A stretch of 64,000 nt of DNA, taken from the IMG/VR virus record IMGVR_UViG_3300028840_006985, one strand, 5' to 3'. The DNA comes from a virus. Its lineage: Duplodnaviria; Heunggongvirae; Uroviricota; Caudoviricetes. The position numbers and the translations under genes are program-made. Below are positions 7,312-48,906 of this stretch, one piece after another; the first letter of the stretch is position 1; every line of letters begins with the position of its first letter. The notes under the pieces are model-generated. The model did not search any database. It was not told the DNA's origin and saw only the letters and a list, made by a program, of their open reading frames with translations.

Positions 7312-9222
7312 GTGAAAGTTGTTTATGAGGATGGTAAATTTAAATGTTTCTCATCATATGATGAGAAACATTTACCTAAAAGTGCAGGGTGGTGGTGGGA
7401 CTCCGCCAACAAATATTGGTTTACTAAAGAAAAACATAAGGCACTTTTATTAAAGGATTATTTCACTCCATCAGCCTCGTCTGAGGCCAATCGCTGTTTT
7501 CAACCCCAACCTCAGTGCAATTCAATTGCATACAATGACAAAATACCATGTCCTGAGGGAATAAGATATTTTCCATTTCAGGAAGAGGGAATAAGATATT
7601 CCCTTTCTCGAGAGGGGACCCTTAACGCGTCAGAGATGGGGTGTGGCAAATCAATAATGGCATTAGGTCTTATTAATATTGATGAGACTCTTCGGAATAT
7701 ATTAATTATTTGTCCAGCGTCTTTGAAAATCAATTGGCAACGCGAATCTGAGAAATGGTTGGTTAGACCATTTGAGATTTATGTTATAAATAATAATAAA
7801 ATTTCTCCAAATGTAAATGCAAATTTGATTATTGTCAATTATGATCGCCTAAAAGGCGATATTCTTAAATATATTATGAAACGCAATTGGGATTTATTAA
7901 TTGTAGATGAAGCGCATGCCCTGAAAAACGGGGCGGCACAGAGAACAAAAAAAATTCTGGGAGTGCCGCCTACATGGCGTTATCATAATGGAAGCTGGAA
8001 ACAGATTAAACCACGAACCTTTGGTGTAATCGACCAATGTCGAAAAAAGGTGTTCTTAACTGGAACACCTGTTCTTAACCGACCCGTCGAACTATTTTCG
8101 CTTATCTCAGCCTTGGATTCGAAAAATTGGAGATCACGTTCAAAATTCGAAACAAGGTATTGCAATGCTCATATGGGAAAATGGGGGTGGGATAACAAGG
8201 GTGCTAGCAATATTGACGAGCTTAACTTCAAACTTAGATCGTCGATTATGTTTCGAAAAACAAAGGCGGAGGTTTTGCCTGATTTGCCTCCCAAAACCAG
8301 ACAAATTATAGTTCTGCCTGGTGACAGTAAGGTGAAATCATTGATTAAAGAAGAAAAAAAATTAAAGATCGATTTTTCGGATATCGAGGCGTTAACACCT
8401 GTGTCAACGGAGTTTCAACAGTTGTCAGAATTGCGTAAACGGTTAGCAATTGCGAAATTGCCTATGATAATCGAACATATAGAGAATATATTAGAAGGTA
8501 CTGAGAAGATTGTTATTTTTGCGCATCACCATGAGGTCATCGATGCGCTTCATGGCCATTTTCAGGCATCGGTAAAATTAGACGGTAGGAACAGTTTGGA
8601 GGCTAAGCAAAAAGCAATCGATGCATTTCAAGATGGTCAAGCTAGGATTTTTATTGGAAGCATCCAGGCCGCTGGTGTTGGAATTACACTTACCGCGGCA
8701 TCGCATGCGGTATTTGCAGAATCGGATTGGGTCCCGGCGAATTTGAGCCAAGCTGAAGATCGTCTGAATCGAATTGGTCAAAAAAATGCTGTTTTGATCC
8801 AACATTTAGTAGTGGATGGCACGTTGGATGCTAGAATGGTTCAGATAGTAGTGGAAAAACAAAAAATTATTGATGGTATTGTGAAACCAGTAGAGTTGAT
8901 CGAACCTAAGAAATCCGAACCACCAAAATCTAAACCATCAAAATCTAAACCTGGTAATGGTAAAAAAAATAATAACATTACTAACGAGCGCAGGGAGGCA
9001 CTTTGTTGTGCATTGATTAGTTTAGCTGGAAAATGTGACGGCGCTCGTCAGCAAGACGGGTGCGGGTTCAATAAGCTGGATACTAATTTTGGTACTAGTT
9101 TAGCAAAGCGGGGATCAGAACGTCCCCTGACTGACGAGGAGTTTTTAGCTGCGTTGAAAATGATTAAGAAGTACAAACGTCAGATTGAACCTAATTTGTT
9201 TGATTTGATTTATAAAAATTGA
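7312..9222 (+). CDS. SNF2-family DNA helicase / translocase
   Basis: GTG start with AAGGAG RBS. Motifs: GCGKSIMALGLI (motif I), LLIVDEAHALKN (DEAH box), FLTGTPVLNRPVELFSLISAL, and C-terminal helicase motifs QAEDRLNRIGQ. Confidence 0.85.
   Translation: MKVVYEDGKFKCFSSYDEKHLPKSAGWWWDSANKYWFTKEKHKALLLKDYFTPSASSEANRCFQPQPQCNSIAYNDKIPCPEGIRYFPFQEEGIRYSLSREGTLNASEMGCGKSIMALGLINIDETLRNILIICPASLKINWQRESEKWLVRPFEIYVINNNKISPNVNANLIIVNYDRLKGDILKYIMKRNWDLLIVDEAHALKNGAAQRTKKILGVPPTWRYHNGSWKQIKPRTFGVIDQCRKKVFLTGTPVLNRPVELFSLISALDSKNWRSRSKFETRYCNAHMGKWGWDNKGASNIDELNFKLRSSIMFRKTKAEVLPDLPPKTRQIIVLPGDSKVKSLIKEEKKLKIDFSDIEALTPVSTEFQQLSELRKRLAIAKLPMIIEHIENILEGTEKIVIFAHHHEVIDALHGHFQASVKLDGRNSLEAKQKAIDAFQDGQARIFIGSIQAAGVGITLTAASHAVFAESDWVPANLSQAEDRLNRIGQKNAVLIQHLVVDGTLDARMVQIVVEKQKIIDGIVKPVELIEPKKSEPPKSKPSKSKPGNGKKNNNITNERREALCCALISLAGKCDGARQQDGCGFNKLDTNFGTSLAKRGSERPLTDEEFLAALKMIKKYKRQIEPNLFDLIYKN
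7514..7530. promoter_or_regulatory. internal copy (16/17 match) of the AGTGCAATTCAATTGCA palindrome inside the SNF2 coding sequence
   Basis: agtgcaattcaattgca at 7514-7530, encoding ...QCNSIA... Matches the sites at 25274, 39194 and 40316. Confidence 0.5.
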
Positions 9223-24811: not shown

Positions 24812-25080
24812 CGAATGAGAAAATTTTTACTATTTTGAATAAATATTCAAAATTTTTAAATAAGAAAGGATATAAATCTCGTGCGATTAAACAGAAATTA
24901 TATTATCCTAACGATATTGACGCAATGGGGCATGTTTTAGTAATGATTCCTAGGATAAAGCAATTTATTAAAGAGGAGAGACGAGAAAAAGCTTTTCGTT
25001 GGCTGGGGTTTGTTCAAGGTATTTTATGGTCTTATGGAGAGTATACAATAGAAGAATTACGTGATCATAATAAAATATGA
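24808..25080 (+). CDS. hypothetical protein (start trimmed to MTNEKIF)
   Basis: ORF track 24769..25080 overlaps the nrdD 3' end. The in-frame ATG at 24808 overlaps the nrdD stop. Confidence 0.4.
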   Translation: MTNEKIFTILNKYSKFLNKKGYKSRAIKQKLYYPNDIDAMGHVLVMIPRIKQFIKEERREKAFRWLGFVQGILWSYGEYTIEELRDHNKI

Positions 25081-25274
25081 GAAAGAGGCCGAATAAAAAA
25101 ATATACAATCTTGGAATTACCTGGTGTTTAAAATGTGAAAAGATGACTAATGATAATATATGGAAAAAAATAAAAGAAGGAATTTTCGTTGGTCAGTGCA
25201 ATTGGTGCAAGACAAGAATGGTTGCCTATATGTATGAAAAAGGTAAAATTGTTGCTGACAAAATAAATGATTGA
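25077..25274 (+). CDS. small zinc-ribbon protein
   Basis: CLKCEKM...CNWCKTRM. Confidence 0.4.
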   Translation: MRKRPNKKIYNLGITWCLKCEKMTNDNIWKKIKEGIFVGQCNWCKTRMVAYMYEKGKIVADKIND

Positions 25275-25292
25275 GTGCAATTGAATTGCACT
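25274..25292. promoter_or_regulatory. palindrome AGTGCAATTGAATTGCACT immediately upstream of the RBS of ORF 25305
   Basis: Reverse-orientation copy (central G) of the motif at 39194 and 40316. Followed by AAGGAG and then ATG. Confidence 0.6.
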
Positions 25293-25304: not shown

Positions 25305-25565
25305 ATGGCTGCGGTCATTAGAAAAGTACCCTCATTATATGGATTAATTGAGGTGGAGCGAGACGAAGATCCGCCTCGAATGCTTAATGTGGGGGTCATT
25401 ATTAATGGCGGATATATGGTAGAGAATTTTGTCAATATGAGTATTTTACCGTTAGAATTGCAACAGATGATTAGAAATGCTCTTTTTGATAGAAGATCTA
25501 TAGATAATAGGATTGACAAAAAGACAAAACAAGAACTTTATGAGGCTTCTAAAAAGAAAGAATAA
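25305..25565 (+). CDS. hypothetical protein
   Basis: ORF track. Strong RBS AAGGAG. Confidence 0.55.
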   Translation: MAAVIRKVPSLYGLIEVERDEDPPRMLNVGVIINGGYMVENFVNMSILPLELQQMIRNALFDRRSIDNRIDKKTKQELYEASKKKE

Positions 25566-32493: not shown

Positions 32494-32532
32494 TAAGACA
32501 TAATTTTTCACTAAAAGGAGATATAAGAAAAT

Positions 32533-32853: not shown

Positions 32854-32864
32854 AAGGAGAAAAA

Positions 32865-33477: not shown

Positions 33478-33478
33478 A

Positions 33479-34679: not shown

Positions 34680-34710
34680 TACAATTGGATTATGCATGGG
34701 AGGTTAACAA

Positions 34711-35685: not shown

Positions 35686-35963
35686 TGCGATTTATTTACA
35701 TAATAATAGGTATGCTTTTTGTTTTCGCTCTATGTAGAGGTGTTTTCACTGATAGTAATATAGTAGAAAATGCTTTAATAGCAAATGGCTTTCAAAATAT
35801 TAGTATAATAGATAAAAGTTTTTTTCTTGTTGGCCTGAGAGGGTGCAGCGGAAAAGATGCAGCTTTATTTAAAACGAGAGCAATCAATCCAACCGGCAAG
35901 GACGTTGAGATTATTGTTTGTGTTGGGTGGCCTTTTAAGGGCGCTACAATTCGGGTGAAGTAA
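35685..35963 (+). CDS. hypothetical protein with an N-terminal hydrophobic segment
   Basis: ORF track. Confidence 0.45.
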   Translation: MRFIYIIIGMLFVFALCRGVFTDSNIVENALIANGFQNISIIDKSFFLVGLRGCSGKDAALFKTRAINPTGKDVEIIVCVGWPFKGATIRVK

Positions 35964-36262
35964 TGAATATTTTTCAATTTGATGATATTAATTCTCGGGT
36001 AGAGAGAAGTATCGAACTGGCGGGCAACATGTTAGTAGAGGTTGCCCGTGCTATTGATTCTAAGGCTCAAGCTGGAGATGGCGGACCTATTGCGATAGGT
36101 GTTGAACTGGGAATAATGCTTATTCTTCGATCTCTTCATGTTGCAATAATGACTGATGAAGTAGATTTAGATCAAGCACGTAAAATACTTAAATCTATCA
36201 ATGAGGATCTGACAGAAAGATTTGATAACATTACTATTGCTGATAAAAGTAATAAAAACTAA
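35963..36262 (+). CDS. hypothetical protein
   Basis: ORF track. Confidence 0.45.
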   Translation: MNIFQFDDINSRVERSIELAGNMLVEVARAIDSKAQAGDGGPIAIGVELGIMLILRSLHVAIMTDEVDLDQARKILKSINEDLTERFDNITIADKSNKN

Positions 36263-36297
36263 TTAGTTATCAAAAAAATCAAAAAAAGGTTTAAAAA

Positions 36298-36576
36298 ATG
36301 AATTTGTCTGAGAAAGAAATAGCAATTCCTGATTGGTGGGAGCCAATGAAGTCAATCAGACATTCGATGAATAGTTTAGATTTTGATTGTAATCTTATTG
36401 GTTTTTATAAAAAAGTTCGTTTATTGTTAAAAAGTTTACAGCAAATTGAAGAAATGGTTAAAATTGGGAATAAACTTCCATTAGGAGTTGCTAAATGGAT
36501 GACAAGAAGAAGAATTGAAATATTAAAAAGGACAAGAGAAGTGTTGGAAAATCAATTATCCAAAGAGAGGGTGTAG
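36298..36576 (+). CDS. hypothetical protein
   Basis: ORF track. Confidence 0.45.
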   Translation: MNLSEKEIAIPDWWEPMKSIRHSMNSLDFDCNLIGFYKKVRLLLKSLQQIEEMVKIGNKLPLGVAKWMTRRRIEILKRTREVLENQLSKERV

Positions 36577-36893
36577 TGTTTAATCAAGAGATGATAAATA
36601 AGATTAACGAACTTGTGAACGGATTAAATAAATATACTTATTCTTCGCCTCCTAATAATTCGTTGGATCTCTATAAAACAGTACGGTTACTGATAAATAA
36701 TTTAATAAATTTTATAGAGTTAGAAGAGGCTATTGAAATAGAAGAATATTTTCGTATGAGAAAAATAGAAATTGGAGAGAGAGAGGATTTTGAAATTATG
36801 GCATTAAAAATGATAGAGAAATTGGTTCAAAAACAAATTTATCAACTTAATTTAAACTTGAAAAAAGCAGAGATAGAAACCAATGAAGTATAA
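36576..36893 (+). CDS. hypothetical protein
   Basis: ORF track. Confidence 0.45.
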   Translation: MFNQEMINKINELVNGLNKYTYSSPPNNSLDLYKTVRLLINNLINFIELEEAIEIEEYFRMRKIEIGEREDFEIMALKMIEKLVQKQIYQLNLNLKKAEIETNEV

Positions 36894-37344
36894 AAACAAA
36901 GTATTAATGACACGATTGGTAACTACTGGTCCTAACCCCGAAATTCATGGGATAGCTCAAATTGTAATGTGGCCTCATATTCCTCCGGTTTTTCGATTTA
37001 CTGAAAAAGCATTATGTTTTTTTCAAACTATTTTTCCTGAATATCGCCAAATTAATAAAGCATATGTCAAATGTATTGGCTATGGTTGGTTATTGGAATC
37101 ACCTATGAGTGATGACGTGATAAAGCGGGAGGCGGTAGGATCATATGCTGCTTGGCAAAGCGTGGTTGATTATGTGGATTGGTTATACCATGGAGATAGG
37201 AGTAATATTATTATTCAAGGTGTTCCAGATGATGAAAGTGTTTTACCTTTTGTTTGGGGATTGTATCAAGATTATTTAAAAATAATACAAACGGACGAAC
37301 ATCTTAGCCATGAATGGCCTTTTGTTAATTGCAAGGAAGGATAA
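36883..37344 (+). CDS. hypothetical protein
   Basis: ORF track. Confidence 0.45.
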   Translation: MKYKNKVLMTRLVTTGPNPEIHGIAQIVMWPHIPPVFRFTEKALCFFQTIFPEYRQINKAYVKCIGYGWLLESPMSDDVIKREAVGSYAAWQSVVDYVDWLYHGDRSNIIIQGVPDDESVLPFVWGLYQDYLKIIQTDEHLSHEWPFVNCKEG

Positions 37345-37699
37345 AATGGAATTACTGTTTACAATTAGTGGAATAATTAATATTGTTTTAAGCGTTTTAT
37401 TATGGAAAAAAGAGAAGGCCATAAAGAAAGAGAGAGACAATCCAATCAGACTAGGTCATCACGTTATCATTAGAGATCTTGATGAGCAATATGACTATTG
37501 GGTAGGATTGCTAGTTGGATATGACTCTATTGGTATTCCTTTAGTTCTCAATCAAAAAACTAAAATAGTATATGCTACAGAATATGCGATTATTGTTCTA
37601 CACAATAAGGAGTTGGTTGAAAATTTAGATGAAATGCCACCCTTGGAGCAAATAGACTATTTAAGACCATTTAATTTAAATATGTTTAAAACATGCTGA
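37310..37699 (+). CDS. hypothetical protein with an N-terminal TM segment
   Basis: ORF track. LLFTISGIINIVLSVLLW. Confidence 0.45.
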   Translation: MNGLLLIARKDKMELLFTISGIINIVLSVLLWKKEKAIKKERDNPIRLGHHVIIRDLDEQYDYWVGLLVGYDSIGIPLVLNQKTKIVYATEYAIIVLHNKELVENLDEMPPLEQIDYLRPFNLNMFKTC

Positions 37700-38052
37700 A
37701 AGAATTAATAAAACAGGTTGTAGGATGTCAACAATGTGGAAGGTGTTGTAGAGGCTGTGTCGAAAAATTAGGTTATTTTCAAGTGCCTAGTGGATATTTA
37801 TTGTCTGATGTTGTTAATGCTAATACGGTAGTAATCAATAATGCTATGACGCGGTTTCGTGTAATAGCTGAGCAGCATGGTTTTGATAAGGTAGATGGGT
37901 TTTTATCCGACACAGGATGTATTTTGCCTTACGATGTAAGGTCTATTACGTGCTTATCTTACTTTTGTGGTAATATTGTTGATATCGAAAATAGAAAAAA
38001 ATTAGATAAATATTTGAAGTTATTACGCAAGAAGCGAAAATATTTATTTTAG
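37693..38052 (+). CDS. YkgJ-like CxxCxxCC zinc/iron-chelating domain protein
   Basis: CQQCGRCCRGC plus further Cys residues (TGC...ITCLSYFCGN). Confidence 0.45.
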   Translation: MLKELIKQVVGCQQCGRCCRGCVEKLGYFQVPSGYLLSDVVNANTVVINNAMTRFRVIAEQHGFDKVDGFLSDTGCILPYDVRSITCLSYFCGNIVDIENRKKLDKYLKLLRKKRKYLF

Positions 38053-38201
38053 ATAACTTAACCGCACTACTTAAGCTTGCCTTGTTCAAAAAAACATTAT
38101 CATCTCTGAGATATATAAAATTTTTATAAAATTAATTTGACATATTTTAGAGATAGTAGTACTCTTTAGGTGAAGTTATTAAAAAAGGAAAGAAGGAAAA
38201 A

Positions 38202-38477
38202 ATGGAAATAGACAATTGGTGTAGATTGGGTAACGGAGATTGCTCAATTCTATATTTAAAAAATGATGTCAAAAAATGTATTAAAACAATAGAGGAGGCA
38301 TCTATAATAACACCACAGGGATGTGCCTATGCTAATGGAAACTTATTAAGGAATGCTGATATAAATTCCAACGGAACAGTGACACCAAGATGTCTAAAAT
38401 ATTGTCAGTATCAAAAATGTGAAATGAAACCTGAAGAATTCATTCGCTGGAATGGTAACTGTACGTATTATGTGTAA
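38202..38477 (+). CDS. small Cys-rich hypothetical protein
   Basis: ORF track. RBS AAGGAAAGAAGGA. Confidence 0.45.
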   Translation: MEIDNWCRLGNGDCSILYLKNDVKKCIKTIEEASIITPQGCAYANGNLLRNADINSNGTVTPRCLKYCQYQKCEMKPEEFIRWNGNCTYYV

Positions 38478-38790
38478 TACTTCTGATGATTGGGATTATT
38501 GTTGGACGAATTGTCCAAAATGTAACAGGTCTTATCATATGTCCGACGGGGGATGCGATTGTAGCATAATGGAGCAAGAAAGAAAAATAGAAAAGTTTTG
38601 GGATGAATTCAACGGAATAGAAGAGGTTGTTATTGAGTCAGCATTGTTTAAAAAAGAAGATGCATGGGGAGATTTTCTCAATAAAGGAGATATGGAGGTT
38701 GTTATTTACACAAAAGATAATGATTTTACATTAACTTTGTCTAATTGGAAAAGAGTACAAAAAATTTTAAATCAAACTTCGCATAATTAA
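38452..38790 (+). CDS. small Cys-rich hypothetical protein
   Basis: CWTNCPKCN...GGCDCS. Confidence 0.45.
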   Translation: MVTVRIMCNTSDDWDYCWTNCPKCNRSYHMSDGGCDCSIMEQERKIEKFWDEFNGIEEVVIESALFKKEDAWGDFLNKGDMEVVIYTKDNDFTLTLSNWKRVQKILNQTSHN

Positions 38791-38856
38791 TATCTTTAAT
38801 TACTTCAATAAAGCTGGAAGATCAAAATAAAAAATCGATACAACAGGAGAAAGGTA

Positions 38857-39180
38857 ATGAAAAAAATAGAGTCTGGTGAAACATTTGTAACAATAGCAAT
38901 TATTATTGCAAGTATAATAATTGCTATTGTATTAACGTTTCAACATGTGATAGATTCACAAATAAATTTAGATATAGCATTTCAATCGGCTCATCAGTTT
39001 TCAAAGAAAATAGAGGATATTGCAGATATCAATTGTGTAGCGCAAGATAGCGATAGTGATGGCTATTGTTCATGTAGCCTTATTAAAAAAGATGGAAGTG
39101 TAATTTCTCTGGAATGTGGCTGTCGGCAAAAATTTTATGGTTGCAAACTGGCAACATTCAAGGTTGGGGAAATAGATTAG
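38857..39180 (+). CDS. membrane-anchored hypothetical protein
   Basis: N-terminal TM segment TFVTIAIIIASIIIAIVLTF. C-terminal Cys pairs. Confidence 0.5.
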   Translation: MKKIESGETFVTIAIIIASIIIAIVLTFQHVIDSQINLDIAFQSAHQFSKKIEDIADINCVAQDSDSDGYCSCSLIKKDGSVISLECGCRQKFYGCKLATFKVGEID

Positions 39181-39193
39181 GGAAGAAGTCGCC

Positions 39194-39212
39194 AGTGCAA
39201 TTCAATTGCACT
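39194..39212. promoter_or_regulatory. palindrome AGTGCAATTCAATTGCACT about 45 nt upstream of ORF 39258
   Basis: Perfect 8-bp arms around a central C. Identical to the copy at 40316. Confidence 0.6.
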
Positions 39213-39257
39213 GGTATAAGGGGAAAGAGCTATACGATTTAGAGTTAGGAGAGGAAG

Positions 39258-40055
39258 ATGAGCATTAAGAGTTTTAAGGACATTATGAACCTTCATGGGC
39301 TAATAGGCCAAGACGAATCTGATTGGTATCAGCACCAAAACGGCGGCGGGTGGATAAAAAAGACAGCATATGTTAACAAGACAGTATATGTTGGGCCTTA
39401 TGCAATAGTTTATGGTAAGGCCTTAGTATCTGGTAAGGCAAAAATTAATGGGACGGCTCAGATTTATGGAACGGTTCGAATTTGGGATGAAGTAAAAGTT
39501 TATGGCAATGCAATAGTAGGTGGAAATGCGGTACTGTTTGACAATGTAGAAATTTATGACAATGCAAAAATTTATGATAATGTAGTAGTAGTTGATGAGG
39601 CAATGGTAGCCGGCGAAGCTATCATATATGATAATGTTCGAGTATATGATAATGCGCGAATTTATGGCAAAGCAAGGGCATTTGACGATGTACATGTAGG
39701 TAATAATGCAAGAGTATACGAGAATGCAGTATTATTTCATAAGACAAAAATTCGTGGCAACGCATGTGTTTATGGCAACGCATGTGTTAAGGGTTCTAGC
39801 ATTATTCGTGGTTATGTTCAAATTTGTGGTGAGGCAGAAGTTGTGGATAAAATTTATGAGGGAAATATCATAGTTTCAACCGCGACATATAAGGGATTGA
39901 AGACTAAAGACAATCAAAGTAAAAAAATTGAATCCAATTTAACACCTGAAGTACCTAAATATAATTCATCATGTCCTATTTGCGGGTCTCCGGCGCAAGA
40001 TTTAATATTTAAAATTTACTGTTCTAAGACAGGATGTCAAAATTATCATCCGTAG
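39258..40055 (+). CDS. left-handed beta-helix (hexapeptide-repeat) protein with a conserved N-terminal region and C-terminal zinc ribbon; paralog A
   Basis: At least 20 consecutive hexads [IV]-[YF]-[GD]-N-A-x. N-terminus MNLHGLIGQDESDWYQHQNGGGW. C-terminus SSCPICGSPAQDLIFKIYCSKTGCQNYHP. Confidence 0.7.
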   Translation: MSIKSFKDIMNLHGLIGQDESDWYQHQNGGGWIKKTAYVNKTVYVGPYAIVYGKALVSGKAKINGTAQIYGTVRIWDEVKVYGNAIVGGNAVLFDNVEIYDNAKIYDNVVVVDEAMVAGEAIIYDNVRVYDNARIYGKARAFDDVHVGNNARVYENAVLFHKTKIRGNACVYGNACVKGSSIIRGYVQICGEAEVVDKIYEGNIIVSTATYKGLKTKDNQSKKIESNLTPEVPKYNSSCPICGSPAQDLIFKIYCSKTGCQNYHP

Positions 40056-40315
40056 GAGAAAGAAATGGTTATGCGTAAGAAAAAGTTCCCATCCGAGATT
40101 GATAAAATATTTCCTCTTTTTTTCTGGACTAAGTGTGATAAATGTTTTTGTGAATTCCGTTGAGAGAAAATGTGGAGAATTAAGAAATTTGAAGATCACA
40201 GTTGTAAGGTGTTTTTTTATTTTTGTGTCGTTAATTATTATATTTGTACAAAATGTGCACCTACTCTTCTAGAACTTACAAAAATAAGACGTTGTTTATG
40301 CATATAATATTAATT

Positions 40316-40334
40316 AGTGCAATTCAATTGCACT
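40316..40334. promoter_or_regulatory. palindrome AGTGCAATTCAATTGCACT immediately upstream of the RBS of ORF 40359
   Basis: Followed by gacacAAGGAGG and the ATG at 40359. Confidence 0.6.
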
Positions 40335-40358
40335 GACACAAGGAGGAAAGAAGAGAAA

Positions 40359-41141
40359 ATGGATTTTAGTCAGGTTATGAACCTTCATGGGCTAATAGGT
40401 CAAGACGAATCTGATTGGCATCAACACCAAAACGGCGGCGGGTGGGTACAGAATATAGCTAGAGTTGAGCCTGCAGCATATATTGGATCCGAGGCAATAG
40501 TTTATGGTCATGCGCGAATTTATGGCAAAGCGGAGGTGTACAATCAAGCTCGAGTATTCAACAGTGCACAAGTACATGGTCATGCTCAAGTATTTGATAA
40601 TGCATGGGTTTACGGAAATGCGGCAATATTTGATAATGCGAGAGTATTTGGATTTGCATCGGTTGACGATAATGCGAGAGTATATGGTGATGCAATAATA
40701 CGTGACAATACACAAGTATTTGGAAATGCGGAAGTTTATGATCATGTACAGATTGAAGAAAATGCAAGAATTTATGGTAATGCGCGAATTTATGGCCATG
40801 CAATGGTTTGTGATAATGCACAAGTTTGTGATAATGCACAAGTTTATGGCAATGCAAGGGTCGGCGGTTCTAGCAGTATTGAAGAATATGTTGAAGTTTG
40901 TGGTTGTATAAAAATTGCAGACAATAAAAGATACAGGGGAAATATTGTAATTACTACTACTAATGATGATAAAAAGCGTACTCTTCTTATTAAAAAATCT
41001 ACAGATGGACAGCCTAATCCGAAGAAAAAAATTGAATTATCTCAATATAATTCATCATGTCCTATTTGTAAATCACCAGCACAAGATTTAATATTTAAAG
41101 TTTACTGCTCCAAGGTGGGATGTCAAAATTATCATCTGTAA
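40359..41141 (+). CDS. left-handed beta-helix (hexapeptide-repeat) protein, paralog B
   Basis: Start trimmed to MDFSQ (AAGGAGG RBS). Ends are about 90-96% nt-identical to paralog A, while the central repeats have diverged. C-terminus SSCPICKSPAQDLIFKVYCSKVGCQNYHL. Confidence 0.7.
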   Translation: MDFSQVMNLHGLIGQDESDWHQHQNGGGWVQNIARVEPAAYIGSEAIVYGHARIYGKAEVYNQARVFNSAQVHGHAQVFDNAWVYGNAAIFDNARVFGFASVDDNARVYGDAIIRDNTQVFGNAEVYDHVQIEENARIYGNARIYGHAMVCDNAQVCDNAQVYGNARVGGSSSIEEYVEVCGCIKIADNKRYRGNIVITTTNDDKKRTLLIKKSTDGQPNPKKKIELSQYNSSCPICKSPAQDLIFKVYCSKVGCQNYHL

Positions 41142-41401
41142 AAAGTAAAAGAAGGAAGAATATGATCGCGCTTAATATTTTAGCTTCTTTAGGAACGATT
41201 ATTTTCATACTGTGGGTTGTAGCGATTATTGCAGGAAAAGCAAATGGATTTTTTACAAGATTATTTTACCGCCTTGGGTTGACTAATCTTACTCAAAAGG
41301 AGTATATGTTATTAGTAAAGTTTTACGATGGTGAAGAAGTAAGTCCAGATGAGGTTAAAAAAGTGTTAAGTATTTTATACGGAGAAAATGATGATTATTA
41401 A
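41120..41401 (+). CDS. small membrane protein
   Basis: IALNILASLGTIIFILWVVAIIAG. Confidence 0.45.
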   Translation: MSKLSSVKSKRRKNMIALNILASLGTIIFILWVVAIIAGKANGFFTRLFYRLGLTNLTQKEYMLLVKFYDGEEVSPDEVKKVLSILYGENDDY

Positions 41402-41951
41402 TTTAAAAGATGCCAAAGTAAAACTAATTCAAAAAGCTGAAACGTATCAAGTTCAAAAAAGACTATTTAGATGTCCTATTTGTGGTCATCATGATTCAGG
41501 GTTTTCGTATGGTCATTTAATCGCTGATGCTAAAAACGAACCTAAAGATTTTGGGCCATGGTATTGTGAATCATGCGGACAAGGCGTATTTGGCCATGTA
41601 ACAAAGGATGGGCAAGTTTTTCTTAAGATTGATCCTGATGTAAAATTTCATAAGTTTCTTGCACTATTGCGCTATGAAGACTTATTTATTATTGTTGAAG
41701 GTAGCACCTCTATTGAAAAAGAGTATCACACTATAGAAATGCATCGTTTTTATTATGAGGAACACGCTTGTCCAGTTAATTTTTTAAGAGGGGTAAAAGA
41801 AGTTATTTATAATAAGAAATTAGATCCTCACGGTGTATTTAAAGTTGTTGCTGTTGTTGACAGAGGTTGGGAAGAGGATTTGGAGAATGCAACTATTGAA
41901 AAGTTTGAAAAACTATTTAATGTTGAATTTTCAGAAAAAAACAAAATTTAG
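41388..41951 (+). CDS. hypothetical zinc-ribbon protein
   Basis: CPICGHHD...CESCGQG. Confidence 0.45.
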   Translation: MMIINLKDAKVKLIQKAETYQVQKRLFRCPICGHHDSGFSYGHLIADAKNEPKDFGPWYCESCGQGVFGHVTKDGQVFLKIDPDVKFHKFLALLRYEDLFIIVEGSTSIEKEYHTIEMHRFYYEEHACPVNFLRGVKEVIYNKKLDPHGVFKVVAVVDRGWEEDLENATIEKFEKLFNVEFSEKNKI

Positions 41952-42006
41952 TTTTAACATATGAATAACCAAAAGAAAATCTTTTTTTAAAAGAAGGGAG
42001 GAAAAA

Positions 42007-42399
42007 ATGGAATCAATAGCGGAAGCAATGGGATTAACAACAACAGGATTAACAATAGTAATCATTATTGCAATATTTGTATATATGATGTTGGTTGGTG
42101 TTACATATTGTCTAGCTGATAAGTATACTAGCTTGGACATAGAAGATATAGGGCTTATACTTGTAATACTTTGGCCTATATATCTTCCTGGTCTATTACC
42201 GTATGTGTTTTTTAAAAAATCAATGCCATGTATCATTGAATGGTATAATAAAAGAAGTAAAAATAAAATTCCTGATATCTACATAAGGGAGGGAGCAAAA
42301 ATAAAAACTCTTGAGCAATACAGTAAGATTGTTGGATTAGTGGAGGAGTATGAAATAGAAAACGATTTTGAAAATTTATTAAACAAAAGAAGAAACTAA
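42007..42399 (+). CDS. membrane protein
   Basis: Two hydrophobic helices (LTIVIIIAIFVYMMLVGV and LILVILWPIYLPGLL). Confidence 0.5.
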   Translation: MESIAEAMGLTTTGLTIVIIIAIFVYMMLVGVTYCLADKYTSLDIEDIGLILVILWPIYLPGLLPYVFFKKSMPCIIEWYNKRSKNKIPDIYIREGAKIKTLEQYSKIVGLVEEYEIENDFENLLNKRRN

Positions 42400-42404
42400 A
42401 AGAG

Positions 42405-42563
42405 ATGGAACCAACAACGGGAGTGATGGAATTAATAACGGACGTGATAGGCTTTTTTGTCATGGTACTTATGCTTATATATCTAGTACTTCCCGGTATC
42501 ATTGCTCGAATGGATTTCAAACGGATAGAGGCAAGAAGAAAAACAAAAAAGAAAAAATCTTAG
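42405..42563 (+). CDS. small membrane protein (52 aa), absent from the ORF track
   Basis: ATG at 42405. MEPTTGVMELITDVIGFFVMVLMLIYLVLPGIIARMDFKRIEARRKTKKKKS, a single TM with a basic tail. Confidence 0.3.
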   Translation: MEPTTGVMELITDVIGFFVMVLMLIYLVLPGIIARMDFKRIEARRKTKKKKS

Positions 42564-42815
42564 GAGATGTGATGTTAGAAATTGTTAATCAAAAAGTATC
42601 AGAAACCTCGACAGAAATGAAAAAATGTTGTCAAAAAATGTTAAGGGAAGTGGACAAACTTGCTGCGTTGTTAAAAGATCAAATGATGGTGCTGGAACGT
42701 TAGCGTGGTGGGAATTTCTCAGGGACAGAATGGACAATATAAATAATTTATATGAAAATATAACGTTAGCTTTTGTTCAATTTTTAAAAGAAAAAAGAGA
42801 AAAGGAGAACAAAAA

Positions 42816-43373
42816 ATGAAATCGTATCAAATTTTATTAATTCCAATACTTTTATCATTAGTTGGATGTAAGTGTAAAAATACAGTCACTACTGATGCGC
42901 GGGTGGACGCTGGCATAGTTCAATCCAAAGTATCAAAAGATGCCAGGCTGGTAGAAAATCTTGAAGGCATGTGGTATATAGACGACGATGGGGTCTGCTT
43001 ACATTTGAAGAAAAAACAGGAAGGTTATTCATATGAAGGATTACAAAAGACCAAATATGATACCTTTGAAGAGATTAATGTGCTTGTAAAATTTGAAGAG
43101 GGTAGAAAATTAACAATGCTACTTTCATTTTTTCCAGCGGGCAAAGGAGAACATGGGGTTCAAATAGATACGTTTTTGCTAATAGGCAAGGCGGGCCCTG
43201 AGTGGAAAAAAATATTCTTTGATCATGCTACAAATATTTCAATGGTTTCTAATTCTGATCATACTGGATATAAGATAATTGAGACGAATCTGACTTCAAC
43301 ATGGAAAAAGCTTGTTACACGTGAGGGGTTAGAGAAATGCAGGTGTGCCAGGTCGAAATTAGAATCTCTATAA
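42816..43373 (+). CDS. putative lipoprotein
   Basis: Signal peptide with lipobox LLSLVGC at the N-terminus (MKSYQILLIPILLSLVGCK). Confidence 0.5.
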   Translation: MKSYQILLIPILLSLVGCKCKNTVTTDARVDAGIVQSKVSKDARLVENLEGMWYIDDDGVCLHLKKKQEGYSYEGLQKTKYDTFEEINVLVKFEEGRKLTMLLSFFPAGKGEHGVQIDTFLLIGKAGPEWKKIFFDHATNISMVSNSDHTGYKIIETNLTSTWKKLVTREGLEKCRCARSKLESL

Positions 43374-43395
43374 AGGGAGTAAAAGGAGTAAAAGA

Positions 43396-43779
43396 ATGAG
43401 CCAAATAGATTTATTGGAAGAATCCAAAAAAGAAAATGCTAAATTAACTGAACAAAATGCTAAATTAACTATGGATATCACAGAAAGAGATAGCAGAATA
43501 AGCGATTTGCAAGATCGGATTTATCACAGAAGGATAAATAAGATTAGTAATTTTTTTAAAACGTGTGCATTATACGCTTTATTGATTGGCTATATTGTTA
43601 TTGGCGGGGCCACCTGTCAACATGTTCAAAATTCGTCTGATTCGACTAAATATAGTCATACTCAAATCATGATACATGGTGGAACGGCTGGGATAGCTTG
43701 GCCGATTTATTTGGTGTCGAAGGTTGGTGGAGTATTTGTAAGCAAAACGGACAATAAGCAAGTAGAAGCAAAGGAATAA
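43396..43779 (+). CDS. coiled-coil plus transmembrane protein
   Basis: N-terminal heptad region (AKLTEQNAKLTMDITERDSRISDLQDRI), then the TM segment CALYALLIGYIVIGGA. Confidence 0.45.
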   Translation: MSQIDLLEESKKENAKLTEQNAKLTMDITERDSRISDLQDRIYHRRINKISNFFKTCALYALLIGYIVIGGATCQHVQNSSDSTKYSHTQIMIHGGTAGIAWPIYLVSKVGGVFVSKTDNKQVEAKE

Positions 43780-43782
43780 AGA

Positions 43783-44259
43783 ATGAAAATAAAAACAGAA
43801 GATCTTCATAAGGCATTTGAAGAAGTTTATAAGGCGATGGTTGAACAATTTCAGTGTCCAGGATGTGTCAATGGGTCAAGTCCTGTTAGTTGTTCTAAAT
43901 ACGTGTTACAAGAAACTGACTATTTAGGGGTGGAAGGCAAATATTGTGCAGCTCACGCGCCTGGAACAATGATGACATATGGAGCATCATTTAGAAAAAT
44001 AGTTTTAGGGTTGCCGATTGGATTCAATAAATATGTAGGCGATCGGCCTGAATTATATTTATTTCTTAACAATCAATATCCTAACTATAACAAATTCAAT
44101 AGAGCCATTTGGGCCTTAGAAAAGGATGGTTATTTATTTGTAAGGGCATATTGCCCTCGCATCAATCAAGGCTTTATAAATATTATTCGTGATGGAAAGT
44201 TTTGTGATTTACCTTCTGGCGTGGTAGATGTAAGTGAATTCATTGATGAGGTGGATTAA
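43783..44259 (+). CDS. hypothetical Cys-containing protein
   Basis: ORF track. Confidence 0.45.
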   Translation: MKIKTEDLHKAFEEVYKAMVEQFQCPGCVNGSSPVSCSKYVLQETDYLGVEGKYCAAHAPGTMMTYGASFRKIVLGLPIGFNKYVGDRPELYLFLNNQYPNYNKFNRAIWALEKDGYLFVRAYCPRINQGFINIIRDGKFCDLPSGVVDVSEFIDEVD

Positions 44260-44266
44260 TTGTTCT

Positions 44267-44364
44267 AAGAAAACCTAATCAAGAAAACCTAATCAAGAAA
44301 ACCTAATCAAGAAAACCTAATCAAGAAAACCTAATCAAGAAAACTTAATCAAGAAAACCTAATA
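44267..44364. repeat. 14-bp tandem repeat aagaaaacctaatc x7 (intergenic)
   Basis: Seven head-to-tail units with one variant (aagaaaacttaatc). Confidence 0.9.
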
Positions 44365-44379
44365 AAAGGAAAAGATGAA

Positions 44380-44895
44380 ATGTATCTATTAAATGGCGAT
44401 TTAAATCAATTGGTAAATTTGACACGGTTTTTAAAAAATTGTGAACTTTACGTTACCCGCGTTGGTATTTATCCTGCTTTTAATAATGTAGAACAGTATG
44501 TAAAAGCACTTGAGGCAATTTTTAAGAATCGTGTCGAGGGGTGGTGGAGTCAAAAACATGAACTCATTCAACATAATATTTGTACAAAAGAAGAGTTCAA
44601 TTCAATCTTACAACAAGAAATAAGAGAAAAAAGACAGGCATGGGAGGAAAAGGAAGAAATGGCCGGCAAGGAAAAAAAGAAAATCAACTGTTGCAAGAAG
44701 GGGGAGGAGGATATTTTCTTTAAGAAGGCCGACAATTGTGATGGGCCAGAGGAGGACGGATTCGTATTAGCTATTAAGGGGCAATACCCTGATCCCGCAT
44801 ATGAACTTATCAATTACTGTCCTTATTGTGGAAAAAAAATATACCAGGAAGAGAAGAAAGAAGAGGTGGAAGCAACGGTTGGGTGGATGATTTAA
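44380..44895 (+). CDS. hypothetical protein
   Basis: ORF track. C-terminal CPYCGKK. Confidence 0.45.
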   Translation: MYLLNGDLNQLVNLTRFLKNCELYVTRVGIYPAFNNVEQYVKALEAIFKNRVEGWWSQKHELIQHNICTKEEFNSILQQEIREKRQAWEEKEEMAGKEKKKINCCKKGEEDIFFKKADNCDGPEEDGFVLAIKGQYPDPAYELINYCPYCGKKIYQEEKKEEVEATVGWMI

Positions 44896-45430: not shown

Positions 45431-45677
45431 TGAATCAGCAATGTATAGTTGTTCTGAGGTTATAGTAGGATTTTTCGACGATTTTAATCTTGACAATGCT
45501 CAGAATGTATTAAAACAATTACCATATTTTGTAAAGATTTTAAACACATATGAACTTATTCTTGCGGTTCATGTAAAAGTTGTGGAAAATAGGGTAATAG
45601 ATTTTGCAGAGAATGCGAAAAAATTAAAATGCATAAAGTATGTAAATTTGAATTACTTTGTAAAACCTACTTTATAA
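45423..45677 (+). CDS. small hypothetical protein
   Basis: ORF track. Confidence 0.35.
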   Translation: MNNESAMYSCSEVIVGFFDDFNLDNAQNVLKQLPYFVKILNTYELILAVHVKVVENRVIDFAENAKKLKCIKYVNLNYFVKPTL

Positions 45678-48228: not shown

Positions 48229-48906
48229 ATGAAATTAGTTGAAGAGTTAAAAATAATAGCGGCGGCAAATGGTGAACCTGGTATTTTGTATGAATCGAGC
48301 CTTTCTCGGATTAAAGAGCATATTGAGAATCATGATACTGGATTTATCACTGCCCATCGTCGGGAGATTAGGCATCTGGATGGAAGAGTTGAAAAACCGA
48401 CTTACAAGCAAAACAAGTCGCGCAATCTAAGATTGCGGGCAGAATTGGGACAAAAATACGTGGTCACTAAAATTCGAGGGATCTATATTGAAAATTATAA
48501 AAGCACAGATCCAGAGAAGCCTGAGTATGAGGTTAGGGAGGGGTCGTTTTTTGTTGTTGATATAAATGACCTTGGAGATCTTGAATTAGAGTTGCGCCGA
48601 CTAGGTAAAAAATGGAATCAAGATTCTATCATGTTCGTTCCGAAGGGCGGCAAGAACGGATACCTTTGGGGGACGGGTAATGCCTGGCCGCTATTAGACC
48701 AGGTTGAAAAATTTAAAAACCCGGTATTTGGTGAGAGGGGAGAATTTATGAGTAAGGTTCGTGGGCGTCCATTTATTTTTCCAGAGATTAAAGAAGAGGA
48801 TATTAATCCTATAGTGATTGGCGAATATTTACCCGATTATCAAAGAAGTGTTATGGGTGAAATGGGAAGACGGGCCTTTATTAATTCAGATTGGCGTAAG
48901 GGTTGA
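48229..48906 (+). CDS. hypothetical protein
   Basis: ORF track. RBS GGAGGA. Confidence 0.5.
   Translation: MKLVEELKIIAAANGEPGILYESSLSRIKEHIENHDTGFITAHRREIRHLDGRVEKPTYKQNKSRNLRLRAELGQKYVVTKIRGIYIENYKSTDPEKPEYEVREGSFFVVDINDLGDLELELRRLGKKWNQDSIMFVPKGGKNGYLWGTGNAWPLLDQVEKFKNPVFGERGEFMSKVRGRPFIFPEIKEEDINPIVIGEYLPDYQRSVMGEMGRRAFINSDWRKG

What the first reader, a model, noticed from the sequence alone, without database searches (positions are those of the whole stretch)
39194..41141. Palindrome-preceded pair of beta-helix paralogs with near-identical ends and divergent middles
ORFs 39258..40055 and 40359..41141 both consist of at least 20 hexapeptide units (left-handed beta-helix type). Their first about 70 nt after the shared MNLHGL codons are about 96% identical at nucleotide level. 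Their last about 100 nt, encoding the zinc ribbon SSCPICxSPAQDLIFKxYCSKxGCQNYH, are about 88% identical. The central repeat arrays have diverged strongly. Each gene is preceded by the same 19-bp palindrome AGTGCAATTCAATTGCACT. This conserved-ends, variable-core layout in direct tandem resembles cassette-type variation of receptor-binding or tail-fibre proteins, or recent gene conversion. The family itself (N-terminal GQDESDW.QHQNGGGW, beta-helix, C-terminal Zn ribbon) is not one I recognise.
Basis: seen in the sequence. Interest (0 to 1): 0.7.

Follow-up and report, generated by a model that had tools for sequence, protein, structure and literature searches.

The report
Tandem phage beta-solenoid paralogs, shared hairpin
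Two neighbouring genes of an uncultured T4-like phage encode duplicated rod-shaped repeat proteins of the widespread but functionally unknown YdcK family, each fused to a small phage-only zinc-binding tail and preceded by a shared hairpin; this looks like an ordinary gene duplication with fast-evolving repeats, not a programmed variation system for host recognition.

Summary
Genes 39258..40055 and 40359..41141 are tandem paralogs. Each has 28 or 26 uninterrupted hexapeptide units. The N-terminal block is 66/69 nt identical, the C-terminal four-Cys tail is about 84% identical (not 88%), and the middle is about 59% identical. The exact 19-bp palindrome precedes both genes.

The palindrome is not private to the pair. 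A third intergenic copy lies at 25274 before an unrelated gene, and a degenerate copy lies at 7514.

The family is recognisable: the YdcK-type beta-solenoid (Pfam PF18836, PHROG 5070/7964, PDB 2F9C). It has more than 2,200 relatives and no known function. The N-terminal H..GGGW motif is family-wide.

The zinc ribbon is a separate, unannotated mini-domain. It was found only on small proteins of phage-like contigs. It is fused to a solenoid only here.

The genes lie in a block of small accessory genes between the replication and packaging modules. Relatives in 15 annotated phages sit in early regions, six of them within two genes of a recombinase, and none in a tail-fibre module. No recombinase or reverse transcriptase was found from 28.8 to 52.1 kb.

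Tandem arrays with conserved ends and variable cores recur in two unrelated viral contigs.

Best reading: a tandem duplication of a "hairpin–RBS–gene" unit, followed by repeat-array turnover and probable gene conversion at the 5' end. Function remains inferred.

The parts
39192..39214 (+). Palindrome/hairpin copy 1. The 19-bp core is 39194-39212, extended to 11-bp arms by CC/GG. It ends 43 nt before the ATG of gene A.
   Evidence: RNA centroid hairpin -16.2 kcal/mol
39258..40055 (+). Gene A, 265 aa: N-cap, 28 hexapeptide units, Lys-rich linker, four-Cys zinc ribbon.
   Evidence: PF18836 41.8 bits vs cut-off 30; Hexapep 29.2 vs 27; PHROG 5070, 1.9e-39
39285..39353 (+). Near-identical 5' block of A (MNLHGLIGQDESDWYQHQNGGGW), 66/69 nt identical to B 40377-40445.
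   Evidence: H and GGGW are invariant or nearly so across 17 family members
39354..39857 (+). Uninterrupted array of 28 hexapeptide (18-nt) units of A.
39960..40055 (+). C-terminal zinc-ribbon mini-domain of A (YNSSCPICGSPAQDLIFKIYCSKTGCQNYHP).
40065..40307 (+). Spacer between the paralogs: an 80-codon Cys-rich reading frame with a good RBS, interrupted by an in-frame TGA at 40161-40163. It is a probable pseudogene or two mini-ORFs, and it ends 9 nt before palindrome copy 2.
40316..40334 (+). Palindrome/hairpin copy 2. It lies 6 nt before AAGGAGG and 24 nt before the ATG of gene B.
40359..41141 (+). Gene B, 260 aa, with the same architecture and 26 hexapeptide units.
   Evidence: PF18836 72.7 bits; Hexapep 42.4; PHROG 5070, 2.9e-48; PDB 2F9C YdcK, 6.9e-12
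40377..40445 (+). Near-identical 5' block of B.
40446..40913 (+). Uninterrupted array of 26 hexapeptide units of B.
41046..41141 (+). C-terminal zinc-ribbon mini-domain of B.
25274..25292 (+). Palindrome/hairpin copy 3 (centre G). It starts right after the stop of small CxxC ORF 25077..25274 and ends 1 nt before AAGGAG, 12 nt before the ATG of unrelated ORF 25305..25565.
   Evidence: fold z-score -3.1
7514..7532 (+). Degenerate copy of the palindrome (2 mismatches) inside the SNF2-type helicase ORF.

Best explanation
SHOWN. The window is part of an uncultured T4-like phage. A and B are tandem paralogs in its long block of small non-structural genes. Each protein has four parts:
- a ~30-aa N-terminal cap carrying the family-wide H-x2-G-G-G-W motif;
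- an unbroken beta-solenoid of 28 (A) or 26 (B) hexapeptide units of the YdcK type;
- a Lys-rich linker;
- a ~30-aa four-Cys zinc ribbon. This ribbon is an independent mini-domain, otherwise seen alone or on unrelated small proteins of phage-like contigs.

INFERRED (origin). The pair arose by tandem duplication of a unit 'hairpin – ribosome-binding site – gene'. The two end modules stay alike because they are the constrained functional parts. The 5' block has also been homogenised at the DNA level, by gene conversion or a more recent exchange. The repeat array diverges fast. Only the inward-facing positions of each hexapeptide are constrained, and 18-nt repeats recombine out of register, so the unit number differs and exact matches lie off the diagonal.

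INFERRED (function). The proteins are non-enzymatic binding rods. The pair offers two different solenoid surfaces on the same anchoring tail. They act early or in the middle of infection, in host take-over or DNA metabolism. This matches where relatives sit in other phages, often beside recombinases.

INFERRED (palindrome). It is a separate cis-element shared by three transcription or translation units. Most likely it acts as a stable hairpin just 5' of the ribosome-binding region, as an mRNA stabiliser or a translational operator. Alternatively it is a DNA operator for a dimeric regulator.

Nothing in the locus indicates programmed cassette switching.
For: Family and fold:
- PF18836 is above its gathering score for both proteins, and Hexapep is above its cut-off.
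- PHROG 5070 and 7964 match.
- The best solved relative is YdcK, PDB 2F9C, E 6.9e-12.
- 2,208 homologues were found.
- H23, G26, G28 and W29 are invariant in 17 N-cap relatives.
- The AF2 core has pLDDT above 90.

Not an enzyme:
- No NCBIfam acyltransferase, carbonic-anhydrase or YdcK equivalog model comes near its cut-off.
- There are no loops in the array.
- No His is shared by A and B inside the array.

Zinc ribbon as a mobile module:
- 9 of 11 hits for the 60-aa tail are unrelated 127-169-aa proteins ending in CP[IL]C..PG.DL.FKFYCSN..C.NYH.
- The motif is N-terminal in a 116-aa ORF of a 70-kb viral contig.
- It stands alone in 58-88-aa proteins on contigs with phage-like gene content.
- It is absent from 185,579 species genomes.
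- It has no Pfam or PDB match.

Mosaic divergence:
-.

Recurrence elsewhere:
- L003 has six tandem paralogs whose first 150 nt are 79-93% identical, with arrays of different length.
- L002 has two paralogs, each behind the same inverted repeat.

Genomic context:
- The locus lies between the replication genes and the terminase.
- An S-adenosylmethionine-lyase family gene lies 7 kb away.
- No recombinase or reverse transcriptase was found.
- In 15 annotated phages the family lies in early regions, and in 6 of them within two genes of RecA, Erf, RecT, Sak4, Gam-like or exonuclease genes.

Hairpin:
- Three intergenic copies against 0 expected.
- Stable stem of -10 to -16 kcal/mol that leaves the SD free.
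- The flanks add 2-3 extra pairs with different bases in each copy.
Against: - No experiment or characterised homologue gives a function for any YdcK-type protein. Literature searches were empty.
- The synonymous-site excess at the 5' end rests on only 19 codons (p=0.027). At the 3' end it is not significant (p=0.16).
- Selection on mRNA, or strong codon bias, could mimic gene conversion.
- In this window the pair is 28 kb from the UvsX recombinase, so the recombination link seen in other phages does not hold locally.
- The tail was modelled with pLDDT below 50.
- Hairpin and DNA operator cannot be told apart from three copies.
Confidence: 0.6

Rival explanations
1. Programmed cassette-type variation of a receptor-binding or tail-fibre protein. 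The conserved ends serve as recombination arms, the palindromes as recombination sites, and the middles as alternative specificity cassettes.
For: - The layout has conserved ends and a variable core.
- Identical palindromes sit in direct order 1,122 bp apart, bracketing gene A.
Against: - The locus lies among small accessory genes, 11 kb upstream of the terminase and far from any tail genes.
- No invertase, integrase or reverse transcriptase was found in the ORFs examined from 28.8 to 52.1 kb.
- The palindrome also precedes an unrelated gene at 25305.
- None of the homologues looked at in 15 annotated phages lies in an annotated tail-fibre module.
- The proteins are short and have no virion-attachment domain.
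- Core identity of about 59% with all substitution types is not DGR-like.
- The only other contig read is 100% identical.
Confidence: 0.04
2. A and B are active left-handed-beta-helix acyl- or acetyltransferases (LpxA/LpxD/GlmU/NeuD-like), or gamma-carbonic anhydrases, that modify a host or phage molecule.
For: - The Hexapep Pfam repeat is above its cut-off.
- Weak matches to LpxD and LpxA chains, E 2e-4 to 1e-2.
- Sources name some relatives 'acyltransferase'.
Against: - All enzyme family models score 15-59 bits against cut-offs of 150-718.
- The arrays are unbroken, with no substrate loops and no C-terminal helical domain.
- No His or other candidate catalytic residue is shared by A and B within the array.
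- The surface positions are the fastest-diverging part of the protein.
- The closest solved relative, YdcK, has no known activity.
Confidence: 0.07
3. A and B are bactofilin-like, polymer-forming (right-handed) beta-helical cytoskeletal proteins that build a filament or scaffold in the infected cell.
For: - Bactofilin PF04519 hits at E 2e-5 (A) and 7e-4 (B).
- Many relatives carry precomputed PF04519 hits or the RefSeq name 'polymer-forming cytoskeletal protein'.
- The AF2 model superposes on right-handed, not left-handed, helices.
Against: - Both scores are below the Pfam gathering score (25.2 and 20.3 vs 27.9), while PF18836 and Hexapep are above theirs.
- The sequence relative with a crystal structure is YdcK. 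From memory, SCOP classes it as a left-handed helix.
- The model's hand may be an artefact of a 17-sequence alignment.
Confidence: 0.1
4. The conserved ends need no gene conversion. The duplication is old, and the end similarity, including codons, reflects only purifying selection on two functional modules plus codon bias. The palindrome is simply a DNA operator of a phage repressor or activator.
For: - The N-cap residues are conserved family-wide, and the Cys pattern is invariant.
- The C-block synonymous excess is not significant (p=0.16).
- The palindrome is perfectly symmetric with 9-bp half-sites, as expected for a dimeric DNA-binding protein.
Against: - N block: 17 of 19 synonymous-capable identical residues use the same codon, against 9.6 expected from codon usage and 61% in the middle.
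- The identity begins abruptly inside the ORF, while the first 6-9 codons differ.
- The hairpin flanks keep pairing with different bases in each copy, which a pure sequence-specific operator would not require.
Confidence: 0.2

Closest known systems
YdcK family / YdcK beta-solenoid repeat (Pfam PF18836; NCBIfam NF040481; PDB 2F9C and 2PIG from Salmonella; PHROG 5070 and 7964)
   Same: - The same hexapeptide-type repeat, above the Pfam gathering score.
- The best solved-structure match.
- A GG[WF][IV] motif just before the first coil.
- No known function.
   Different: - Far below the NCBIfam YdcK equivalog cut-off (54.5 and 65.8 vs 350 bits).
- The N-terminal cap is of the 'HxHxNGGGW' type rather than the 'KKYELTDET…GDLGGFIE' type of most relatives.
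- The C-terminus is a zinc ribbon that none of the relatives inspected (120 listed) or found by end-directed searches carries.
Hexapeptide-repeat acyltransferases (LpxA, LpxD, GlmU C-domain) and gamma-carbonic anhydrases
   Same: - A hexapeptide periodicity of about 18 residues per coil.
- Hexapep Pfam hits.
   Different: - No family model reaches its threshold.
- No loops, no catalytic His and no helical C-domain.
- Superposition rmsd of 11-16 A.
Tandem arrays of YdcK-type genes in other viral contigs (IMG/VR UViG_3300036715_000153 = L003; UViG_3300027608_001910 = L002)
   Same: - Direct tandem paralogs with near-identical 5' ends and repeat arrays of variable length.
- Each unit carries its own repeated upstream element: a TTGACA-17-TATAAT promoter in L003, and a 12-bp-arm inverted repeat in L002.
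   Different: - Only about 40% protein identity to A and B.
- Different C-terminal modules (DUF7666-like 'GKIRCRKLFV' or none).
- Different upstream elements and no zinc ribbon.
Bactofilins (PF04519)
   Same: A beta-helical rod of similar coil size, with sub-threshold HMM hits.
   Different: - Below the gathering score.
- A different repeat signature.
- Bactofilins are right-handed (from memory), whereas the YdcK relative is left-handed.
Hairpin operators placed just 5' of ribosome-binding sites in T4-like phages (for example the gene 43 operator; from memory, not tested here)
   Same: A stable stem-loop 1-6 nt upstream of a Shine-Dalgarno-like sequence, in a phage with a T4-type capsid and replication genes.
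   Different: - The same hairpin is shared by three unrelated positions.
- No binding protein is known.
- No Rfam family matches.

Membership tests
YdcK beta-solenoid repeat family (PF18836) | Pfam model score at or above the gathering score (30 bits) | tested here: met
   A 41.8 bits, B 72.7 bits
YdcK beta-solenoid repeat family (PF18836) | Sequence relationship to the solved YdcK protein (2F9C/2PIG) | tested here: met
   phmmer E 6.9e-12, residues 49-198 of B to 160-311 of 2F9C
YdcK beta-solenoid repeat family (PF18836) | Conserved GG[WF] N-cap immediately before the first coil | tested here: met
   H23, G26, G28 and W29 are invariant in 17 sequences. A GG[WF][IV] motif is seen in both N-terminal types.
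YdcK proper (NCBIfam NF040481 equivalog) | Full-length model score at or above 350 bits | tested here: not met
   54.5 and 65.8 bits
Left-handed beta-helix fold | Left-handed triangular coil of three hexapeptides | tested here: inconclusive
   Periodicity and homology fit. However, the AF2 model gives rmsd 11-16 A to left-handed helices and mostly 3-6 A (up to 8.3 A) to right-handed ones.
Hexapeptide acyltransferases (LpxA/LpxD/GlmU/CysE/NeuD) | Family model above its curated cut-off | tested here: not met
   Best 58.7 bits vs 207 (LpxD subfamily). All others are lower.
Hexapeptide acyltransferases (LpxA/LpxD/GlmU/CysE/NeuD) | Catalytic His and substrate loops interrupting the helix | tested here: not met
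   28 and 26 uninterrupted units. No His is aligned between A and B within the array.
Hexapeptide acyltransferases (LpxA/LpxD/GlmU/CysE/NeuD) | Trimer with active sites between subunits; acyl-CoA or ACP binding | not testable with these tools
   Only single-chain prediction was available.
Bactofilin (PF04519) | Pfam score at or above 27.9 bits | tested here: not met
   25.2 bits (A) and 20.3 bits (B)
Phage receptor-binding / tail-fibre protein | Gene located in the tail or baseplate module; homologues annotated or shown as virion proteins | tested here: not met
   The locus lies between the replication block and the terminase. In 15 annotated phages the family sits in early regions. The PHROG categories are 'unknown function'.
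Diversity-generating or site-specific cassette systems (DGR, shufflon, invertible segments, integron) | Nearby reverse transcriptase, invertase or integrase | tested here: not met
   Precomputed Pfam for all genes from 30.9 to 44.3 kb shows only Band_7, FeoC (faint) and dUTPase. Ten further ORFs between 28.8 and 52.1 kb show only SAM lyase and NUMOD4.
Diversity-generating or site-specific cassette systems (DGR, shufflon, invertible segments, integron) | Variation of the variable part between isolates or reads | tested here: inconclusive
   Protein B occurs unchanged on 5 contigs. The one contig read is 100% identical to the window. No close relatives were found in IMG/VR or JGI metagenomes.
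Zinc ribbon / rubredoxin-like knuckle pair | Two CxxC-type knuckles with invariant Cys | tested here: met
   CPxC-x12-C-x4-C with C9, P10, C12, C25 and C30 invariant in 12 sequences. Only generic CPxCG knuckle hits were found in PDB.
Zinc ribbon / rubredoxin-like knuckle pair | Metal binding and fold | not testable with these tools
   The tail was modelled with pLDDT below 50.

The most novel reading that the evidence does not exclude
A and B could be a diversifying pair of phage effectors built on a shared, previously undescribed phage-only zinc-ribbon 'adaptor'. The Lys-rich linker plus zinc ribbon would bind nucleic acid, possibly the very hairpin or palindrome that precedes both genes and a third gene. 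That would give autoregulation of a small regulon. The two different solenoid surfaces would then block different host DNA-end nucleases or defence proteins. This would match the family's recurrent position next to phage recombinases, in the place where Gam- or Abc-type nuclease inhibitors sit. It would give the large YdcK-type family its first function.
Probability: 0.08. Interest if true: 0.7.

Novelty: new variant of a known kind. Interest (0 to 1): 0.35.

Why it matters
The YdcK-type solenoid family is large. It has more than 2,200 relatives in this search, occurs in 67 GenBank phages, has a solved structure, and still has no function.

This locus adds three usable facts:
- The family repeatedly forms tandem arrays in which the end modules are held constant and the repeat array turns over.
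- In phages it is an early-region gene, often placed beside recombinases, not a virion protein.
- Here it is fused to a compact four-Cys mini-domain that appears restricted to phage-like contigs and also occurs alone or on other small proteins. That pattern suggests a common docking module.

None of this is surprising enough to change a field. It does give concrete handles (two natural surface variants on one anchor, and a shared hairpin) for a first functional study of the family.

Tried and rejected
- Exact palindrome in IMG/VR: no match. In all fetched loci it occurs only in L001, which is the same sequence as the window.
- Close relatives of the conserved ends: none in IMG/VR or JGI metagenomes.
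- Neighbour gene 41388..41951 as a bait for related phages: nothing found.
- A chimeric N-cap plus tail query in the word-indexed protein search: no hits. The window's own proteins appear to be masked there.
- Foldseek against PDB and BFVD: no match with E at or below 1e-3. This is usual for solenoids.
- DNA-mimic idea: rejected as a simple charge argument. pI is 8.5 for A and 6.3 for B.
- PADLOC: no hits.
- Rfam: no family anywhere in the window.
- T4 late-promoter motif TATAAATA: not enriched.
- Sigma-70 scan: no convincing + strand promoter next to the palindromes.
- Alternative genetic code as an explanation for the in-frame TGA at 40161: rejected, because TGA ends 17 of 75 long ORFs.
- Similarity between the two small Cys ORFs upstream of palindrome copies 2 and 3: not significant (E 0.33).
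- Exact-sequence look-up of protein A: failed, although the contig holding it is on record. No conclusion on variation is possible.
- Literature searches for YdcK, PF18836, Sfi19 orf229 and LpxA-like phage proteins: nothing on function.
Full report
**1. The observation**

When the proteins are written in rows of six residues after the shared GGGW motif, A shows 28 and B shows 26 consecutive hexapeptide units. Neither has an inserted loop.

A codon-aware alignment shows strongly non-uniform divergence:
- A 69-nt block that includes the MNLHGL codons (39285-39353 vs 40377-40445) is 66/69 identical.
- The last 100 nt are 84% identical.
- The 184 aligned codons in between are 59% identical at the nucleotide level. 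Some 12-codon windows fall to 33-50%.

The palindrome AGTGCAATTCAATTGCACT is exact at 39194 and at 40316. Allowing three mismatches, the window holds four sites, against none in any of 100 shuffles.
- An exact copy read from the other strand (centre G) at 25274-25292, 12 nt before an unrelated 86-aa ORF.
- A two-mismatch copy at 7514 inside the helicase gene.

The palindrome, however, is not private to the pair.

**2. What the genome is**

PHROG matches give the following gene order, all on the + strand:
- DnaB-like helicase (3053)
- SNF2-type helicase (7312)
- UvsX-like recombinase (10877)
- sliding clamp (20258)
- NrdD (22334)
- about 25 kb of small, mostly unmatched ORFs
- terminase (52312), portal (55299), prohead protease (58833) and major head protein (60395)

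The head protein is about 30% identical to those of T4-like phages, cyanophages, Bacillus phage SP-15 and a 595-kb uncultured phage. There are no tRNAs. No DNA-level relative exists among GenBank phages.

A Logan contig from SRR6963591 is 100% identical to window 30925-44296. Its precomputed Pfam table shows only Band_7, a faint FeoC hit and dUTPase among 27 genes around the pair.

Ten further ORFs between 28.8 and 52.1 kb gave only a SAM-lyase family hit (48229..48906) and a NUMOD4 motif. No recombinase or reverse transcriptase was found among the ORFs examined around the locus.

**3. What the proteins are**

Family assignment:
- Both proteins pass the gathering score of Pfam PF18836 (YdcK beta-solenoid repeat; 41.8 and 72.7 bits against 30). 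Both also pass that of Hexapep. Bactofilin stays below its threshold.
- Both match PHROG 5070 and 7964, category 'unknown function'.
- The best solved relative is YdcK of Salmonella (2F9C/2PIG, E 6.9e-12). LpxD and LpxA follow at E 2e-4 to 1e-2.
- NCBIfam gives only far-sub-threshold hits: YdcK_fam 54.5 and 65.8 bits against 350, and enzyme models 15-59 bits against 150-718.

The large protein search found 2,208 relatives. Their N-termini fall into two types:
- 'KKYELTDET…LYRIKAL…GDLGGFIE'
- '…HQHxNGGGWV', which is the type of A and B

In an alignment of 17 proteins of the second type, H23, G26, G28 and W29 are invariant. The 'unrecognised' GQDESDW.QHQNGGGW is therefore the family's own N-cap. 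The C-termini of relatives vary widely. Two of the top 25 carry RING-type zinc fingers.

Structure prediction:
- An AlphaFold2 model built on that alignment has pLDDT above 90 for residues 50-160 and below 50 for the tail.
- Foldseek found nothing significant in PDB or BFVD.

Evidence against an enzyme:
- No His is shared by A and B inside the array.
- There are no loops and no helical C-domain.

The pI values are 8.5 for A and 6.3 for B, which argues against a simple acidic DNA mimic.

**4. The zinc-ribbon tail is a separate module**

- The last 60 residues of B were searched against 1.84 billion representatives and gave 11 hits. Nine of them are unrelated 127-169-aa proteins whose extreme C-terminus reads CP[IL]C..PG.DL[IV]FKFYCSN..C.NYH.
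- A degenerate DNA pattern for the motif found one IMG/VR contig (70 kb). There the motif is at the N-terminus of a 116-aa ORF.
- The same pattern found nothing in 185,579 species-representative genomes.
- A profile of the tails found 17 more proteins, 58-88 aa long. The 11 whose sequences I read are mostly just the ribbon followed by an acidic tail with aromatic residues.
- Two of these lie on 20-39-kb contigs with Ham1-like, EF-Ts, IMPDH, HNH and NUDIX genes. That gene content suggests large phages.
- Cys9, Pro10, Cys12, Cys25 and Cys30 are invariant.
- There is no Pfam match. PDB gives only generic CPxCG knuckle hits.
- Within the window only A and B carry the motif.
- No other protein found in any search combines it with a solenoid.

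**5. How the pattern arose**

Among residues identical in A and B that have synonymous codons, the same codon is used as follows:

| Region | Same codon | Expected from codon usage |
|---|---|---|
| N block | 17 of 19 | 9.6 |
| Middle | 46 of 75 | 36.5 |
| C block | 21 of 27 | 14.7 |

Fisher's test gives p=0.027 for N against middle and p=0.16 for C against middle.

- The 5' block is thus younger, or homogenised, at the DNA level. The evidence for the 3' block is weaker.
- The identity starts abruptly inside the ORF, and the first 6-9 codons differ.
- Upstream, only the palindrome and a short AAGG(A/G)G…AAAGA stretch are shared. Downstream of the stop codons nothing is shared. The duplicated unit therefore runs from the palindrome to the stop codon.
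- Exact words of 18-22 nt shared by A and B also lie off the main diagonal, at offsets of -243, +27 and +243. The unit numbers differ as well. This is as expected for out-of-register recombination within 18-nt repeats.

The same layout recurs elsewhere:
- A 140-kb viral contig (L003) carries six tandem YdcK-type genes. Their first 150 nt are 79-93% identical, their arrays differ in length, and three share a C-terminal domain. Three are preceded by the same TTGACA-17-TATAAT promoter.
- L002 carries two tandem genes with near-identical 5' ends, each behind the same 12-bp-arm inverted repeat.

Conserved ends with a variable core in tandem therefore look like a recurrent habit of this family, seen here in three unrelated contigs, rather than a special device of this phage.

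**6. Where the family sits in known phages**

tblastn found the family in 67 GenBank phage records. I looked at 15 of them. None of the genes lies in an annotated tail-fibre module.

In six of the 15 the gene is within two genes of a recombination gene:
- LfeInf_101 is followed by RecA.
- Javan318_0008 is followed by Erf.
- phiST1_0045 is followed by ERF.
- Sfi19 orf229 is followed by Mu Gam-like, then Sak4.
- Mannheimia 587AP2 has RecT, then an exonuclease, then gp43.
- Javan174_0012 is followed by a small ORF, then RecT.

Two more lie next to replication genes: Javan246, and Boilgate gp64. The rest lie among unnamed small early genes.

This is the only functional hint available, and it does not hold locally, because UvsX is 28 kb from the pair. 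PADLOC gave nothing, and the literature gave nothing on YdcK function.

**7. The palindrome**

- As RNA it forms a stem of 10-11 pairs with a 3-nt loop, worth -10 to -16 kcal/mol in the centroid, and it leaves the Shine-Dalgarno sequence unpaired.
- It ends 1 nt before AAGGAG at copy 3. It ends 6 nt before AAGGAGG at B, and 6 nt before the homologous AAGGGG at A. In A, a 26-nt insertion then provides a new RBS and ATG.
- In each copy the flanks add two or three further pairs with different bases: CC/GG plus G·U; U·G plus U-A; G·U plus two U-A. This hints that pairing itself is maintained. With three copies this is only suggestive.
- No T-run follows on the + strand, and no Rfam family matches.
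- A DNA operator for a dimeric regulator remains an equally simple reading of a perfect 9+1+9 palindrome.

**8. Verdict**

The finding is a real and tidy example of a tandem duplication in a known but uncharacterised phage protein family. It has a new domain combination (YdcK-type solenoid plus a phage-restricted zinc-ribbon mini-domain) and a shared upstream hairpin that belongs to a slightly wider set of three sites.

The receptor-binding or cassette interpretation is not supported. Gene conversion or mosaic exchange at the 5' end is moderately supported. Function is inferred only from architecture and family context.

Interest is moderate to low: the locus is useful as an entry point to the family, but not surprising.

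Noticed in passing
window 40065-40307: An 80-codon Cys-rich frame (CxxC … CxxC) with a good RBS lies between the two paralogs. It is interrupted by an in-frame TGA at 40161-40163. TGA is a normal stop in this genome (17 of 75 long ORFs). It is therefore a probable pseudogene or two mini-ORFs.
   Followed up: partly
window 25077-25292: A 65-aa CxxC…CxxC ORF ends exactly where palindrome copy 3 begins. This resembles the arrangement upstream of copy 2. The similarity between the two small ORFs is not significant (E 0.33).
   Followed up: partly
window 7236-7374: A 19-bp palindrome, ACACATCTGTCAGATGTGT, lies inside a TTGACA…TACACT promoter-like site upstream of the SNF2-type helicase. A perfect 34-bp palindrome (7341-7374) lies just inside the start of that ORF.
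   Followed up: no
window 44253-44380 and 45659-45716: About eight tandem copies of the 14-nt unit AAGAAAACCTAATC lie in an intergenic gap. A related TAAAACCTACTT-type array lies 1.3 kb further on. These look like iterons, and so could mark an origin or a regulator-binding array.
   Followed up: no
window 1252-2034 and 15800-16459: A second paralog pair, 14.5 kb apart. The genes share 74% identity over the first 300 nt, and both contain 78-nt (26-aa) internal tandem repeats with a C-P-x-x-I-L-E-K-L-S-K-D type motif.
   Followed up: no
window 8-145; 27947-28064; 48032-48194: Three repeat features: an (AAACAG)n microsatellite at the window start, a perfect 59-nt tandem duplication inside an ORF, and a 61-nt repeat (97% identical) with copies 102 nt apart.
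   Followed up: no
window 48229-48906 and 30432-31121: An S-adenosylmethionine lyase family protein (PF23780, 33.5 bits against a cut-off of 28). From memory, this is the family of the phage T3 anti-restriction enzyme. There is also a NUMOD4-motif protein, of a kind associated with homing endonucleases, in the same accessory block.
   Followed up: partly
window 4479-4512 and 38786-38819: A 34-nt inverted repeat, 91% complementary, whose arms are 34 kb apart. The second arm lies just upstream of ORF 38857..39180, next to the finding.
   Followed up: no
L003 3577-8836; L002 2653-3903: L003 has six tandem YdcK-type paralogs and L002 has two. All have near-identical 5' ends and repeated upstream elements: a perfect TTGACA-17-TATAAT promoter in L003, and TAATATTATTGC…GCAATAATATTA in L002.
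   Followed up: yes
[not shown]
   Followed up: partly
L024 10001-10177; L025 5337-5528: Stand-alone versions of the zinc-ribbon mini-domain (58-65 aa) have acidic tails containing W and Y (…NWPIYDDDN, …SWPPYEE). They lie on contigs next to Ham1-like, EF-Ts, IMPDH and HNH genes, a gene content that suggests large phages.
   Followed up: partly
GenBank phages Sfi19, phiST1, Javan318, Javan174, LfeInf, Mannheimia 587AP2: YdcK-type solenoid genes lie within two genes of Erf, RecT, Sak4, RecA, Gam-like or exonuclease genes in 6 of 15 phages inspected. This suggests a link to recombination modules.
   Followed up: partly
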